Assembly (NCBI RefSeq): GCF_000019345.1
Contig: NC_010503.1
Location: forward strand, 270,001 to 302,000
Direction of reading: 5' to 3'
Source: Ureaplasma parvum serovar 3 str. ATCC 27815
GTDB taxonomy: Bacteria; Bacillota_I; Bacilli_A; Mycoplasmatales; Mycoplasmoidaceae
DNA: 32,000 nt
A program made the position numbers and the translations under genes. Below, piece by piece: positions 21,392 to 27,402 of this stretch. How positions within the stretch are numbered: the stretch's first letter is position 1; each line of letters begins with the position of its first letter. The notes under the pieces were generated by a model. The model did no database searches. It was not told where the DNA came from and saw only the letters and a program-made list of their open reading frames with translations.

Positions 21392-23257
21392 ATGAATAAA
21401 CAAAAAAGAAAAATCTCAGTATTAACTTCAATATCATTATTTTTAATTATTAGTTTAAGTATTGGGTTAGGTTTGGGATTAATAAAAAATAATGAAAATT
21501 CCATCACTTCTAAAGTTCAAAAAAGTAGCAATTTTTTTATTAATGATTTATCAAAACAATTGTTTTTAGATGTTTTTAATCAAGATAAATTAGAATTAAA
21601 TGCTTATATGTATGATCAAAATAATGTATCAGATCAACAATTATTAGATTTAAAATTTGCTTTAACATTATTAAATCCTAACAGATTAGATATTAATGAT
21701 GACGATACAATTGCCATTATGAAAAATAATGCTAAAAAAATTATTTTTCAAAGTTTATCTAATAATTGATACTGATTATTTACCAATTTAAAGAGTTTAG
21801 AATTTTCTTACACTCCTTATAAACCTAATTTTTATGCCCCCTATATAAATGAAAAACAAGATTTTACTAAATCATCAATTTTTGACAAAGTTATTAATAT
21901 TAATAAACCCTTAACAAATTACATAAAAATTAAGCAAAAATTATTCGATAAAGAAAATTATCGTAGTGTTGATGTTTATTATTTGCAATTTGGTGATCAC
22001 TTAATCTTACGTTTATTAAAATTTAATAAAAAAAATCATTTTGATGTTCGATTTGATACAGATCTTTTTCAATTCAATAAACCAATTATAAATTTGGAAT
22101 TAATAGCAAAAGAAATGCAAACAAGTATTGATTATCATCGAGAAGATAATTTTAAAAAAGATATTTTAGATTATAAAAAAAATTATGAAGATTATTTATA
22201 TTATGATGAAAAGCTTAACTCAAGTATTTATCAACAGGGATTAGATAAAATAAATAAAGAATATTATGAAGTCAATAATTTTAATTTTTTTAATACTAAA
22301 AAACCACTTTTTCAAAAATTTAGTTATCAAATGTTTTTAGAATTAAAAGATAAGTTGGGTTTTAAACGTTATGTTTTAAGAAATATTGATCAAAAAGAAG
22401 TTAGAGCACGTGATCATTTTAATGACAATGAAAAAAAACAACAAAATAAGAATTATTTTAGATCTTTTGATAAAGAATTGAATTATTTTCAAAAATATAT
22501 TGATCATAATTTAGATATTAATATTAATAAAATTTCAAAGGAAGCATATATTACACAAAAAATAATTAAAAATCTTTTATTAGATGCTTTCAATAATAAT
22601 GATGTTCAAATTACAAAATATCTAATTCAACAAAATGATAAGGAATACCAAAATAAATTAATTAAACAATTAATAGAATTTAGTAATTATTTTAAAAACC
22701 AAAAAACACCAAGAGATTCTAATGAATATAAGCAAAAATTAAATGATTATGAAAAAATATTTTCACAAAATTGGTATTTTATTTTAATGAATTTAAAGCA
22801 CTTTGAATTAAGTTTTAATAATTGATTTACTTTACCAAAACAAATAAATCCTATTACTAAAGAGATGTTAGGACCAAGTGAAAAATATTTAAAAAGGTTA
22901 AAAAAACTTAAACCATATGAGGATTATTATTTCATTAATAATTATTTAGAAAAAAAACAAGAAGGAGATACTTCAATGTTGATTGGTTCATTTAAGGATT
23001 TATATATTACAAAAAATCAATCTATTTTTAATATTAAGATCGATTTTTCAAGTAGTGAAAACAGATTAAGTTTAAATCCTTTGATTTATTTTTTTCCTAA
23101 AACTAAAAATAAATTATCAGTTGATTTAATCACATCAATTTTTCATCAAGCTATATTTCACCAAAATAAAGAATACTATCAATTGTTTGAAACTGATATG
23201 ATTGATAAATATGAATATGGTATCCCAGCCCAAATGTTACTTTTATGAAGGGAATAG
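21392..23257 (+). CDS. Membrane-anchored or secreted surface protein of unknown function (621 aa) with two copies of an NW-aromatic...NLK module
   Basis: Track ORFs 21392-21769, 21983-22825 and 22865-23248 are all in one frame. I checked every intervening codon and found only TGA=Trp. N-terminal signal-anchor MNKQKRKISVLTSISLFLIISLSIGLGLGLI has no lipobox Cys. Stop is TAG 23255-23257. Confidence 0.8.
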
Positions 23258-23263
23258 TAATTA

Positions 23264-24559
23264 ATGTTTATTTTTTTTAAAAAAAATCATCTACTAAAAT
23301 TAAGTTTATTTTTTATTCCTCTAACATTAATTTCAATCCTTATCACCTCATGTAGCACATCAAATTTAAAAAAACAACAGATATTAACAAATAATGAAAT
23401 TAGTTTTTTTATGGATAAATCCCAAAATTGTTATGTTGGTTTAATTGTTGATCAGACATTAAAAAATGATAAAAAAACTATTTTTAACGTTAGTTTAATT
23501 GATGAAAAAAATACGAAGTTAAATTTATTAGTTAAAGATTATCAAATTAAAGATAACAAAATTTTAATTAGATTACCGCGTTTAATAAAACTTAATGATC
23601 ATTTAATTATTACAAGCAATAATGCTTCATTCATACCTATTAGAAAAATAATTAATATTGATAATTTAATTGATTTGAATATAATCAGAACAAATAATCA
23701 AACACAAGATTCTTGAATAGCTTTTTTAAATAACAAAGTGATTAATAATCTTTTAATAACTATTTTTCCTAATAAAAAAGACCGTGATGAATATATTAAA
23801 TCACAACAAGAAATTAAAATAGAATATGCTCATGAAATAGCGAATTGATTAAATTATTATAACACAGTGCAAAATGATGCTAATAAAGCAGCAGTATTTA
23901 ATGAAAATACAGCTAGAAGTAAACTTAATAACAATCTTTTTAATAATGTATCATTAAGCAATCCATTTGCTTATGAACAAGCACGTAAGTTTCACAATAC
24001 ATTATTTAATAAAAATTGATTGTGATTTTTATTTAATTTAAAAAGACAAATTTTCATGTTATATCCTGATGATAATTTATTTCAAGAATCGAGCGAGGAA
24101 ACAGCAGAAGGATTAAAAGATTCAAAAATCAATAATCGTAGTTCTTTTTATCGTGCTCAATCGAATGAATTTATTGATGGGTTATATGTTGTAGAAAGTT
24201 CTAATTTAAATAAAAAACCAGAAGAATTAGATGAATATACTGATTTTAGTAAAACAGCTAAATTTACTCTGTTGAATAATGAAGGTTTTGTTTTTACAAT
24301 CTCCATTGAAGAAAATTATGATAAAACCAAAAAACTAATTTCGCGTAAAGTTAGTTTGTTGCCATGAATTAAAACTTTACCAAGATTAATGTTTAATGAT
24401 CATGTAATAAAACAAGAATTTAATTTAGCTAATTATACTGAAAATTCATACGATTACAATGCTGTTAATTTTCATTCACCTCTTGAAATTAAAGTTTATG
24501 AAGATCAATTTGGCGGAAAAGCAATTCGTTTTTCATTTGTTGATATTGATCCTAATTAA
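23264..24559 (+). CDS. Surface lipoprotein of unknown function (431 aa), a partial paralog of the upstream gene
   Basis: MFIFFKKNHLLKLSLFFIPLTLISILITSC contains a lipobox. Track ORFs 23264-23716 and 24056-24367 plus the tail are in one frame, joined through TGA=Trp codons (checked codon by codon). Stop is TAA 24557-24559. Confidence 0.8.
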
Positions 24560-25617: not shown

Positions 25618-27402
25618 TTACTCTAAAGGATTAGTTAACGCGTATTTTTTACATATTTCACCAATTGTTCTCTCTATTCTAAAAAACAATCTTGCTGTAT
25701 CATATTCATTTTTTAAATGATTAGGAACTTGTTTTGTTAATATAAACATTTCATCACTATTTTTAATTTTTTCACCTTTATCATCTGTTTTATAGTCAGA
25801 ATAATAATAAAAATTATCTCTTTTTTGATTAAAAGGTTCATAGATATTAGTGTAATGATATTTAAAATTATAAAGTTCTTCTAATTTTGAAACATCGTTT
25901 GCTGAATCACTTTTTGATTTAATTTGATCAATAATAGGTTTAATTATCTTTTCTTTATAATATTGAAAAACATCTGGTAATTGATTTAAATAGTAATTAG
26001 ATCAATACATTAATTCACCAAATTCTTCTTGGGGATAAAAACCATAACCAACGGCTTTAATATATGGAACAATTTGCTCAACATCATCTTTGACAACGCT
26101 ATCATAAAATCTAGAAAGTTTTTGATTAGCATTACGTGCTTTTTTCTCAATTTCGTTTGTTAAATCTTTTAATTTTTTAATTAAGAGGTAGTATTTACCT
26201 TTTTTTGAAAGAGAATTAGGATCTATTGATGGTTGTCAATTATCTAACATTGAAGTTTTGGACTTAATAGTAAAAAATAGACCCGAAAAATTGGCTGCGT
26301 CTAAACTATCTCTAATAAGTGCTTGACCATATAATTTTCATTTTTCTATTAATTGTTTTAATTCTAGAGATTTAGTGTTTATAAATTTTTGTTTTGCTAA
26401 ATCTTCAATTTTTAATGCTAATCCATATCAAATAGCAACATTAGTATTATCCATTAAAGTTTGATATATAAACTTTTTACCTAAAATATCTTCTTTTCAT
26501 GTATCTCAAAAATCTTGATTATTTTTGTGGCCATTTTGTTTAATATATTGTGAAACTTTTTTATGTTCTTGGATTTCTCTTTTAATATTATCGATTTTAT
26601 TTTCAATTAATTTTCTGTTTAATATACTCTGTAGTACTGAAGAAATATTTTCATGAAGTTGATTAGCTTCATGAAATAATTCCATAATTTCTCTATTGTA
26701 TAACTTATAATATTCTTCACCATTATCAATTTTTTCAAAATAATTATGTTTTAAATTTTTAACATCAGATTTAATATTTTTGATTTTATTAGCTTCATCA
26801 TTAATTGTTTTTTTATAAAGACCATCGTATGATTCAATCATTTTTTTATATCTTAATTTGATATCATCAATATTTTCATTATCAGGAATTTGATTATAAT
26901 TAGTTAAAATTTCTTCAATATTATTTTTGATATGATCGATATCATGAATAATTTTGTTTTTATTTTTAAAATTTAAAAAATCGGCTTGTCTTTTTTTTAT
27001 TAATTTAACAAAGTTATCAATTTTAATTAATCATGATTCATATTCTTGTGTTTTTTCTTTTAAAAGATAATTAAAATCTTTTATTAATTTATATAATTCA
27101 TAATAAGTAAATGCTAATAATTCATTCTCACTATTTTCATTTAAATTTAAATTCACCAAGTAATTAATATAATTATTGATTATATCTGCTTTATTAAGAA
27201 GATAATTGTATTTATGATTATTTTTAAGAACAAAATCAACTTTAGAACTAGCTTCTTCTTTAATTTTCAAATAAAGATTAAAGAAATTTTTATTGTCTTC
27301 TTTTTTAATTTTTGTTAATGAGCAACTCAAAATTATAGGAATTGGTGTAACTATAACTCCTATAAATGATAATAAAAAAGTTCTTTTAAAATTTATTTTC
27401 AT
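25618..27402 (-). CDS. Large helical lipoprotein of unknown function (594 aa)
   Basis: ATG at 27402. MKINFKRTFLLSFIGVIVTPIPIILSC contains a lipobox. Track ORFs 27031-27402 and 26506-26841 and the region down to 25618 share one frame. Every triplet was checked and the only in-frame stops are TGA=Trp. Stop is TAA (complement of 25618-25620). Confidence 0.8.

What the first reader, a model, noticed from the sequence alone, without database searches (positions are those of the whole stretch)
21392..24559. Tandem surface-protein genes share a thrice-repeated, Trp-rich N-W-aromatic-aromatic-x-x-x-N-L-K module of unknown function
Seen: three segments align without gaps. They are NNWYWLFTNLKSL (nt 21761-21799), QNWYFILMNLKHF (nt 22766-22804), both in the 621-aa protein, and KNWLWFLFNLKRQ (nt 24011-24049) in the 431-aa lipoprotein. 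N, W, N-L-K and the aromatic pair are invariant in position. Each copy is preceded by a helical, Asn/Lys-rich region. Each is followed about 50-80 aa later by a beta-looking segment (LQFGDHLILRLLKFNKKNHFDVRFD / DLYITKNQSIFNIKIDFSS / NNEGFVFTISIEENYD). The first protein therefore looks like an internal duplication of the unit present once in the second. One protein is signal-anchored and the other lipid-anchored, the genes are 6 nt apart, and they are probably co-transcribed. Inference: this is an uncharacterised Mollicutes surface module, possibly forming a two-component surface complex. I cannot assign it to a named family from memory.
Basis: partly seen in the sequence, partly recalled or inferred. 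Interest (0 to 1): 0.6.

Follow-up and report, generated by a model that had tools for sequence, protein, structure and literature searches.

The report
Aromatic-motif membrane proteins, ABC-linked triplet
The two Ureaplasma parvum surface-protein genes carry three copies of an already named but functionally unstudied Mollicutes domain, and comparison with other mycoplasmas shows these are three old sister genes that almost always sit behind, and probably work with, an ABC transporter.

Summary
Both ORFs and all three motif coordinates are exact under code 4. The motif pattern occurs 3 times in the proteome against 0.004 expected, and profile-profile comparisons align the three units in register (E 1e-15 to 1e-23).

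The module is not unnamed. It is NCBIfam TIGR04313, 'aromatic motif membrane protein', and RefSeq already gives these Ureaplasma proteins that name.

What comparison with other genomes adds:
- The family consists of three ancient paralogue classes, always encoded in the order A-B-C.
- The 621-aa protein is an A-B gene fusion, not a recent internal duplication.
- The 431-aa lipoprotein is class C with an MBA-type N-terminal module grafted on.
- In 50 triplets from other Mollicutes, 48 directly follow a 600-aa ABC-2 (type V) permease with a large extracellular domain and its ATPase, and two follow the permease alone.
- All 100 genomes with the family also have that permease.
- U. parvum and a close congener (probably U. 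urealyticum) are the exception. There the pair sits after rplQ, and the permease and ATPase genes lie elsewhere.

Most likely role: membrane-tethered extracytoplasmic partners of that ABC machine. The cargo is unknown. The predicted fold has no PDB match. I found no paper describing this linkage.

The parts
21392..23257 (+). P0001, 621 aa: signal-anchored fusion of class A and class B aromatic-motif domains
   Evidence: ORF under table 4. TIGR04313 148.5 bits in 2 stretches. RefSeq name of 99%-identical proteins is 'aromatic motif membrane protein'.
21413..21484 (+). N-terminal hydrophobic segment (residues 8-31), no lipobox Cys: signal anchor or uncleaved signal
   Evidence: Read directly from the translation.
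21479..22396 (+). Class A domain (residues 30-335)
   Evidence: In-house family HMM 118.5 bits. TIGR04313 57 bits for the N half alone. Falls in clade A of the tree. Carries the class A motif signature W-Y-W.
21761..21799 (+). Motif copy 1, NNWYWLFTNLKSL
22415..23254 (+). Class B domain (residues 342-621)
   Evidence: Family HMM 179 bits. TIGR04313 111 bits. Falls in clade B, sister to Mesomycoplasma B (SH-aLRT 97). Carries the class B signature N-W-Y-F.
22766..22804 (+). Motif copy 2, QNWYFILMNLKHF
23264..24559 (+). P0002, 431 aa lipoprotein: MBA-type N-terminal module plus class C aromatic-motif domain
   Evidence: ORF. TIGR04313 131 bits and NF045871 123 bits.
23264..23353 (+). Lipoprotein signal peptide, lipobox ITSC with Cys30
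   Evidence: Translation; lipobox scan.
23273..23671 (+). MBA N-terminal paralogue module (residues 4-136). Residues 46-129 are modelled as an Ig-like beta sandwich.
   Evidence: NF045871 122.8 bits against a cut-off of 55. AF2 strands 46-129, and Foldseek hits only to Ig/FnIII-like domains. Absent from the class C proteins of five other Ureaplasma species.
23651..24556 (+). Class C domain (residues 130-431): helical bundle, motif, beta sheet, helices
   Evidence: TIGR04313 134.5 bits. Clade C has SH-aLRT 99. In the AF2 model the core has pLDDT about 90-97.
24011..24049 (+). Motif copy 3, KNWLWFLFNLKRQ. W252 is the only invariant residue of the whole family.
   Evidence: In the model it lies at the end of the helical bundle, running into strand 262-266, with pLDDT 93-97.

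Best explanation
The two genes encode the Ureaplasma parvum set of 'aromatic motif membrane proteins' (NCBIfam TIGR04313).

Shown:
- The family consists of three anciently diverged paralogue classes, always encoded in the order A-B-C. Each class normally has its own lipoprotein signal or signal anchor.
- Here A and B are fused into one signal-anchored 621-aa protein.
- Here C is a lipoprotein whose own leader has been replaced by the signal peptide and Ig-like module of the Ureaplasma MBA family.
- In other Mollicutes the triplet is the distal part of a tightly packed gene cluster: a roughly 600-aa ABC-2 (type V) permease with a roughly 380-aa extracellular domain, then a DrrA-like ATPase, then A, B and C.

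Inferred:
- A, B and C are non-redundant, membrane-tethered extracytoplasmic subunits or partners, probably one of each, of that ABC machine.
- ATP-driven movements of the permease and its extracellular domain are coupled to them. This is analogous to the way NosFY works with periplasmic NosD and the lipoprotein NosL.
- The Trp-centred motif sits in the best-defined core of the domain, at the junction of the helical bundle and the beta sheet. It is more likely a structural or hydrophobic docking or binding element than a loop epitope.
- In U. parvum and its close congener G262 (probably U. urealyticum) the AB-C pair has been moved behind rplQ, but the permease (two copies) and the ATPase are retained elsewhere. 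The partnership is therefore presumed to persist in trans.

The cargo is not known. A hydrophobic molecule such as a lipid or sterol is only a guess.
For: Family membership:
- TIGR04313 scores 148.5 and 131.3 bits against a cut-off of 40. Each unit also scores on its own.
- RefSeq uses this name for the orthologues.

Three classes in fixed order:
- 17 complete triplets and one degraded one in 16 other genomes.
- In the tree, C is one clade (SH-aLRT 99), A holds 20 of 21 rows (91) and B holds 20 rows (91). Label shuffles never reached this clustering.
- Class-specific motif signatures fit the window copies.

A-B fusion:
- Also present in genus g40, in Mesomycoplasma hyorhinis and M. ovipneumoniae, and in five other Ureaplasma species.

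ABC linkage:
- 15 of the 17 non-Ureaplasma triplets found by searching for the domain directly follow the permease and ATPase; the other two follow the permease alone.
- 33 of 34 loci found independently by searching for the permease show permease, ATPase, then three domains. The 34th has two matched domains in A plus B and C.
- Median gaps are -1, -23 and -14 nt.
- Among 398 genomes of the order, all 100 with a strong family match have the full-length permease. Of the 102 with the permease, 100 have a strong family match.
- The permease tree mirrors the B and C trees: Ureaplasma plus Mesomycoplasma has support 99, 97 and 88.
- Other Ureaplasma species keep the order permease, ATPase, AB, C.
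- The window's genome keeps two permease genes and the ATPase.

Permease type:
- The AF2 model has pLDDT 86.7.
- Its first ~190 residues (transmembrane helices) match NosY of NosDFY(L) (TM-score normalised to target 0.54-0.58), and also ABCG2, ABCG5/G8 and PmtCD.
- The ATPase is closest to DrrA-type ATPases.
Against: - No physical or genetic evidence for a complex exists. The link rests on gene order, co-occurrence and congruent trees.
- In the window itself the pair is not next to any ABC gene.
- In U. parvum the slot behind the permease and ATPase is occupied by an unrelated 1054-aa lipoprotein, so the partnership could have been lost there.
- Three different partners for a presumably homodimeric half-transporter is an awkward stoichiometry.
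- The aromatic-motif domain has no PDB fold match and no sequence match, so nothing about cargo can be read from it.
- The model of P0002 is only moderately confident overall (pLDDT 73.8).
Confidence: 0.62

Rival explanations
1. The two proteins are autonomous variable surface antigens or adhesins of Ureaplasma. They would form at most a two-protein surface complex with no transporter involved. The ABC neighbourhood in other species would then be co-regulation without physical coupling.
For: - In U. parvum and its congener G262 the pair is unlinked from ABC genes.
- P0002 carries the N-terminal module of the phase-variable MBA family.
- Both proteins diverge fast: 74% and 70% identity to the congener, against 94-100% for flanking ribosomal genes.
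- Slippage-prone tracts are present: A8 inside P0001, with one public assembly frameshifted exactly there, and T8A8 at the start of P0002.
- M. bovis homologues are reported in secretome and immunogenicity screens.
Against: - Near-perfect linkage and co-occurrence with the permease and ATPase across three families.
- Congruent trees.
- Strict retention of exactly one A, one B and one C in fixed order is not how variable antigen families behave.
- No MBA-type inversion sites are present.
- The motif lies in a buried, high-confidence core.
Confidence: 0.22
2. They are substrate-binding lipoproteins of an ABC importer, with A, B and C as three alternative receptors for different nutrients. One UniRef name for the U. 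urealyticum orthologue is 'Iron ABC transporter substrate-binding protein'.
For: - Lipoprotein genes next to ABC genes are typical of Gram-positive and Mollicutes importers.
- The UniRef name is as seen.
Against: - No Pfam or NCBIfam substrate-binding family matches.
- No PDB sequence or fold match to any binding protein.
- The permease has the type V (ABC-2, NosY/ABCG-like) fold, which is used by exporters and mechanotransducers rather than binding-protein-dependent importers.
- The ATPase is DrrA-like.
Confidence: 0.08
3. The shared motif is a chance product of AT-rich, Asn/Lys/Phe-rich composition, and the three segments are not homologous.
For: Pairwise BLASTP between the window copies is weak (E 0.009 and 1.8).
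Against: - 3 hits against 0.0036 expected.
- Each unit passes the curated family cut-off.
- hhalign probabilities are 98.6-99.6% with the motif in register.
Confidence: 0.01

Closest known systems
NCBIfam TIGR04313 (aro_clust_Mycop) 'aromatic motif membrane protein', formerly 'aromatic cluster surface protein'; precomputed Pfam PF27856
   Same: Both window proteins are members. Every unit scores over the curated cut-off, and they have the Trp-centred motif, N-terminal membrane anchors and a Mollicutes-only distribution.
   Different: The function is unknown. The three papers that mention the family only list the domain. In this genome A and B are fused, C carries a foreign N-terminal module, and the genes are detached from the ABC genes that accompany the family elsewhere.
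NosDFY(L): ABC-2 permease NosY, ATPase NosF, periplasmic NosD and lipoprotein NosL (PDB 7o0y, 7znq)
   Same: It works in a comparable way. It has a type V ABC-2 transmembrane domain plus ATPase whose job is done outside the membrane together with extracytoplasmic and lipid-anchored partners. NosY is the best structural match of the linked permease (TM-score normalised to target 0.54-0.58).
   Different: A, B and C show no sequence or fold similarity to NosD or NosL. The mycoplasma permease has its own ~380-aa extracellular domain with no PDB match. There is no link to copper or N2O reductase. Not a family member.
Ureaplasma multiple banded antigen (MBA) and its N-terminal paralogues (UU172, UU189, UU483, UU487, UU526; Zimmerman et al. 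2011, PMC3047005)
   Same: Residues 4-136 of P0002 match the MBA N-terminal paralogue model (123 bits). The literature shows that this module can be fused to other ORFs to make chimeric surface proteins.
   Different: The MBA equivalog model is not met (20.9 bits against a cut-off of 305). The published inversion-site sequences do not occur beyond chance. The C-terminal part is a conserved aromatic-motif domain rather than a variable region. The locus is not among the five paralogues listed in that paper.
ABCG/ABCA-type (type V) lipid and sterol exporters and PmtCD
   Same: The transmembrane fold of the linked permease matches these.
   Different: Only the membrane domain matches, at low TM-score relative to the query. 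It says nothing direct about A, B or C, and any inference about cargo is speculative.

Membership tests
TIGR04313 aromatic motif membrane protein | Whole-protein score above the curated cut-off (40 bits) | tested here: met
   P0001 148.5 bits and P0002 131.3 bits. Units alone score 57, 111.4 and 134.5 bits.
TIGR04313 aromatic motif membrane protein | Trp-centred aromatic motif, [ND]-W-[LYF]-[WF]-x-L-x-N-[LI] | tested here: met
   Present in all three units. The Trp is invariant in a 42-sequence alignment of all three classes and 98-100% conserved per class in 54 triplets.
TIGR04313 aromatic motif membrane protein | N-terminal lipoprotein signal or signal anchor, so an extracytoplasmic location | tested here: met
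   P0002 has the lipobox ITSC with Cys30. P0001 has a hydrophobic segment at residues 8-31. The topology itself is predicted, not shown.
TIGR04313 aromatic motif membrane protein | Restricted to Mollicutes | tested here: met
   120 of 398 genomes of the order, all but one in three families. None in 28 other families of the class sample. 0 of 14 control genomes. Only 142 representative clusters among 1.84 billion proteins.
Canonical permease-ATPase-A-B-C gene cluster (defined here) | One member each of classes A, B and C, in that order, on the same strand | tested here: met
   The window has A, B (fused) and C. Class placement comes from the tree and the motif signatures.
Canonical permease-ATPase-A-B-C gene cluster (defined here) | Directly preceded by the ~600-aa ABC-2 permease and the DrrA-like ATPase | tested here: not met
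   rplQ lies upstream in the window. Permease homologues lie at genome positions 112800-114587 (with the ATPase at 114587-115297) and 453776-455560.
MBA N-terminal paralogue (NF045871) | Score above the cut-off (55 bits) over the N-terminal module | tested here: met
   122.8 bits over residues 4-136. It is one of 7 matches over the cut-off in the genome.
MBA N-terminal paralogue (NF045871) | Phase variation by DNA inversion at the published inverted repeats | tested here: not met
   The long UU172 repeat gives 0 matches with up to 3 mismatches. The 10-nt core occurs 3 times against 4.5 expected. No convincing inverted repeat is present.
Multiple banded antigen proper (NF045872) | Equivalog score of at least 305 bits | tested here: not met
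   20.9 bits.
ABC importer substrate-binding protein | Match to a binding-protein family or fold | tested here: not met
   No Pfam or NCBIfam match. No PDB sequence match. Foldseek hits fall only on the Ig-like N-terminal module.

The most novel reading that the evidence does not exclude
A, B and C form a 1:1:1 membrane-tethered heterotrimer that docks on the large extracellular domain of a Mollicutes-specific type V ABC machine. That would be a five-part system of a kind not yet described, moving or handing over a hydrophobic cargo (lipid, sterol or lipoprotein) at the surface of wall-less bacteria. The whole operon has been exchanged horizontally between mycoplasma lineages as a unit, and human ureaplasmas have rewired it: A-B fused, C given an MBA leader, and the genes scattered.
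Probability: 0.4. Interest if true: 0.65.

Novelty: already known. Interest (0 to 1): 0.4.

Why it matters
What the comparison adds is a concrete, testable context for a family that curators could only name after its motif. The family comes as three non-interchangeable paralogues tied to one particular ABC-2 transporter in Mycoplasmopsis, Metamycoplasma, Mesomycoplasma, some Mycoplasma and Mycoplasmoides species, and Ureaplasma. Several of these are veterinary or human pathogens, and the proteins are surface-exposed and reported as immunogenic. Knowing that they are probably parts of a transport or surface-handling machine, rather than free antigens, changes how knock-outs, vaccines and diagnostics built on them should be interpreted. 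The human ureaplasma arrangement also gives a fixed natural example of the MBA leader being grafted onto an unrelated conserved protein.

Tried and rejected
1. The local Pfam-A copy gave nothing for either protein. The precomputed label PF27856 is newer than that copy.
2. The search for homologous proteins, with P0002 alone and with two alignments, returned almost only Ureaplasma proteins, because the word filter was swamped. I obtained diverse, usable sequences through the search for related loci with the permease alignment instead.
3. I did not fold full-length P0001. MAFFT places the separate class A rows on the B half whenever B rows are present, so a two-half alignment could not be built with the tool.
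4. I searched for MBA-type inversion sites and any convincing inverted repeat around the pair. None was found.
5. I tested homology between the permease extracellular domain and the aromatic-motif domain. There is none (hhalign probability 0.1%).
6. I tested whether the 1054-aa lipoprotein that follows the permease and ATPase in this genome is a hidden family member. Neither the HMM nor phmmer detects it.
7. PDB sequence searches with the permease and class C profiles gave nothing.
9. The promoter and terminator scan was uninformative in this AT-rich DNA, with fewer promoter-like hits than in shuffles.
10. Earlier notes of the scan held nothing on this family.
Full report
**Observation.**
Under genetic code 4 the window holds a 621-aa ORF (21392-23257, P0001) and a 431-aa ORF (23264-24559, P0002), 6 nt apart. 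They lie downstream of rpsM, rpsK, rpoA and rplQ. The window is positions 270001-302000 of a single-contig genome of 751,679 bp. Identical or near-identical proteins in public data are from Ureaplasma parvum.

The three motif segments are at exactly the coordinates given. The strict motif pattern occurs three times in the 595 ORFs of the genome, only in these two proteins, against 0.0036 expected from amino-acid composition. Pairwise BLASTP between the units is weak (E 0.009 and 1.8), so the case rests on profiles, and these are clear:
- Each unit alone passes the curated cut-off of NCBIfam TIGR04313 (57, 111 and 134.5 bits against 40).
- hhalign between class alignments gives 98.6-99.6% probability.

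**Name.**
The module is TIGR04313, 'aromatic motif membrane protein', earlier called 'aromatic cluster surface protein'. RefSeq already uses that name for the U. parvum and U. urealyticum proteins.

The first 136 residues of P0002 are a different thing, an MBA N-terminal paralogue module (NF045871, 123 bits). It is one of seven such modules over the cut-off in this genome. The 2011 paper on these paralogues lists mba plus five others (PMC3047005).

Full-text search found only three papers that mention the aromatic family. All merely list the domain in M. bovis (Mbov_0536-0538) or M. synoviae (three tandem genes), and none gives a function.

**Three classes.**
I fetched 18 loci from 16 genomes of three GTDB families. 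In every one the domain occurs as three abutting, co-oriented copies. One locus has a fourth copy and one holds a degraded extra set.

A maximum-likelihood tree sorts the copies by position:
- The third copies form one clade (SH-aLRT 99).
- The first copies form a clade of 20 of 21 rows (91).
- The second copies form a clade of 20 rows (91).
- The one exception is an orphan of a degraded triplet.
- No label shuffle came close to this clustering.

Class-specific motif signatures across 54 triplets:

| Class | Signature |
|---|---|
| A | [DN]-W-Y-W |
| B | N-W-[LY]-F |
| C | N-W-L-W-F-L-F |

These match copies 1, 2 and 3 of the window respectively. P0001 is therefore a fusion of the A and B genes, not a recent duplication. 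The same fusion is present in genus g40, in Mesomycoplasma hyorhinis and M. ovipneumoniae, and in five other Ureaplasma species. Each unfused class has its own lipobox or signal anchor.

**ABC context.**
- 15 of the 17 non-Ureaplasma triplets are directly preceded, on the same strand, by a roughly 600-aa membrane protein and a 234-aa ABC ATPase. The other two follow the membrane protein alone.
- The ATPase is closest to DrrA-type ATPases.
- The membrane protein has five N-terminal helices, about 380 extracellular residues and a last helix. It gives only sub-threshold Pfam ABC2_membrane hits.
- I then searched from the other direction. The permease alignment retrieved 34 named loci, including Mycoplasmopsis agalactiae, M. 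bovis and M. arginini, Metamycoplasma auris, Mycoplasma yeatsii, M. imitans, and Mesomycoplasma hyorhinis and M. ovipneumoniae. In 33 of the 34 the order is permease, ATPase, then three aromatic-motif domains; the 34th (L058) shows an extra matched domain.
- Median gaps between consecutive genes are -1, -23 and -14 nt.
- In a sample of 398 genomes of the order, all 100 with a strong family match have the full-length permease. Of the 102 with the permease, 100 have a strong family match. The two exceptions are a 40-contig draft and a genome with a weaker match.
- Nothing was found in 28 other families of the class.
- A class C profile finds only 142 representative clusters among 1.84 billion proteins.
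- The permease tree joins Ureaplasma and Mesomycoplasma (99), as do the B (97) and C (88) parts of the domain tree, against the family-level taxonomy. The cluster therefore appears to evolve, and probably to transfer, as a unit.

**The Ureaplasma arrangement.**
Five other Ureaplasma species keep the order permease, ATPase, A-B fusion (832-869 aa), C (336-349 aa). A sixth C gene in that set (L061) reads as a 518-aa ORF. Their C proteins have no MBA module.

Only the window's species and its close congener G262 have these three features together:
- the AB-C pair sits behind rplQ;
- C carries the MBA leader;
- the permease and ATPase (genome 112800-115297) are followed instead by an unrelated 1054-aa lipoprotein, and a second permease copy sits alone at 453776-455560.

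The published MBA inversion sites are not present here. Both proteins diverge faster than their neighbours: 74% and 70% identity to G262, against 94-100% for the ribosomal genes.

**Structures.**
An AlphaFold2 model of P0002 was built from 35 sequences (mean pLDDT 73.8, pTM 0.60). It shows:
- an Ig-like sandwich (residues 46-129, the MBA module);
- a helical bundle (132-257, pLDDT about 95);
- the motif, running into strand 262-266;
- an antiparallel sheet (295-371), further helices, and a final strand.

Foldseek against the PDB matched only the Ig-like module. No hit with E below 0.001 covers the aromatic-motif domain. The profile search of PDB sequences was also empty.

A model of the M. agalactiae permease (28 sequences) is good (pLDDT 86.7, pTM 0.79). 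Its first ~190 residues match NosY of NosDFY(L) best (E 2.5e-3, TM-score normalised to target 0.54-0.58), then ABCG2, ABCG5/G8, ABCG1 and PmtCD. All of these have the type V ABC fold. The extracellular domain has no match, and it is not related to the aromatic-motif domain.

**Reading.**
- Shown: family membership; three fixed paralogue classes; the A-B fusion; the MBA graft; near-obligate linkage and co-occurrence with a type V ABC permease and ATPase.
- Inferred: A, B and C are extracytoplasmic, membrane-tethered partners of that machine, probably one of each. The machine would work in the manner of NosFY with NosD and NosL rather than as a binding-protein importer.
- Unknown: cargo, direction, and whether the partnership survives in U. 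parvum, where the genes are scattered.
- The main rival is that in ureaplasmas the proteins act chiefly as variable surface antigens. This is not excluded, and it is compatible with the MBA leader and the slippage-prone tracts.

**Verdict.**
The module is already known by name but not by function. The added value of this analysis is the A-B-C class structure and the ABC link, which I did not find in the literature searched.

Noticed in passing
window 22028-22035: An A8 run lies inside the class A domain of P0001 (codons for K-K-N, residues 212-215). One public U. parvum assembly (a 722,452-bp contig) has the gene called as 232-aa and 380-aa pieces. The 232-aa piece is identical to P0001 up to residue 214 and then diverges, which indicates a frameshift at this tract. 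It could be ON/OFF slippage or a sequencing error.
   Followed up: partly
I confirmed the sequence but did not test variation among strains.
   Followed up: partly
window 981-1286: A weak, sub-threshold match to the MBA N-terminal paralogue model (41.9 bits against a cut-off of 55) lies in a 374-aa open frame at the start of the window.
   Followed up: no
own genome G000:C1:112800-118583 (outside the window): This stretch holds an ABC-2 permease homologue, a DrrA-like ATPase and then a 1054-aa lipoprotein, which occupies the slot that A-B-C fills in other Mollicutes. The lipoprotein is not detectably related to the family but contains NWLFYKKW at residues 853-860. A second permease copy stands alone at 453776-455560.
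   Followed up: partly
L009, L011, L012/L013, L036/L039, L053: Some genomes (genus g36, which includes Mycoplasma yeatsii, and Mesomycoplasma hyorhinis) carry two or three copies of the whole permease, ATPase, A-B-C cluster. One copy in G194 is degraded. L008 and L050 have a fourth domain gene after C.
   Followed up: no
trees: Groupings cut across family taxonomy in the permease tree, and some also in the domain trees. Examples are Ureaplasma with Mesomycoplasma (both trees), G156 (family f2) with G175 (family f1) (both trees), M. imitans with a strain labelled 'Mycoplasma sp.' (permease tree), and M. yeatsii inside the M. agalactiae/M. bovis group (permease tree). This suggests repeated horizontal transfer of the whole cluster.
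   Followed up: partly
window 25618-27402 (- strand): The 594-aa lipoprotein downstream has no family match in NCBIfam or Pfam. At 59% identity to the congener G262, it is the fastest-diverging annotated gene of the neighbourhood.
   Followed up: no
protein P0041 (U. urealyticum orthologue of P0001): One UniRef cluster name for it is 'Iron ABC transporter substrate-binding protein'. No search here supports that name.
   Followed up: partly
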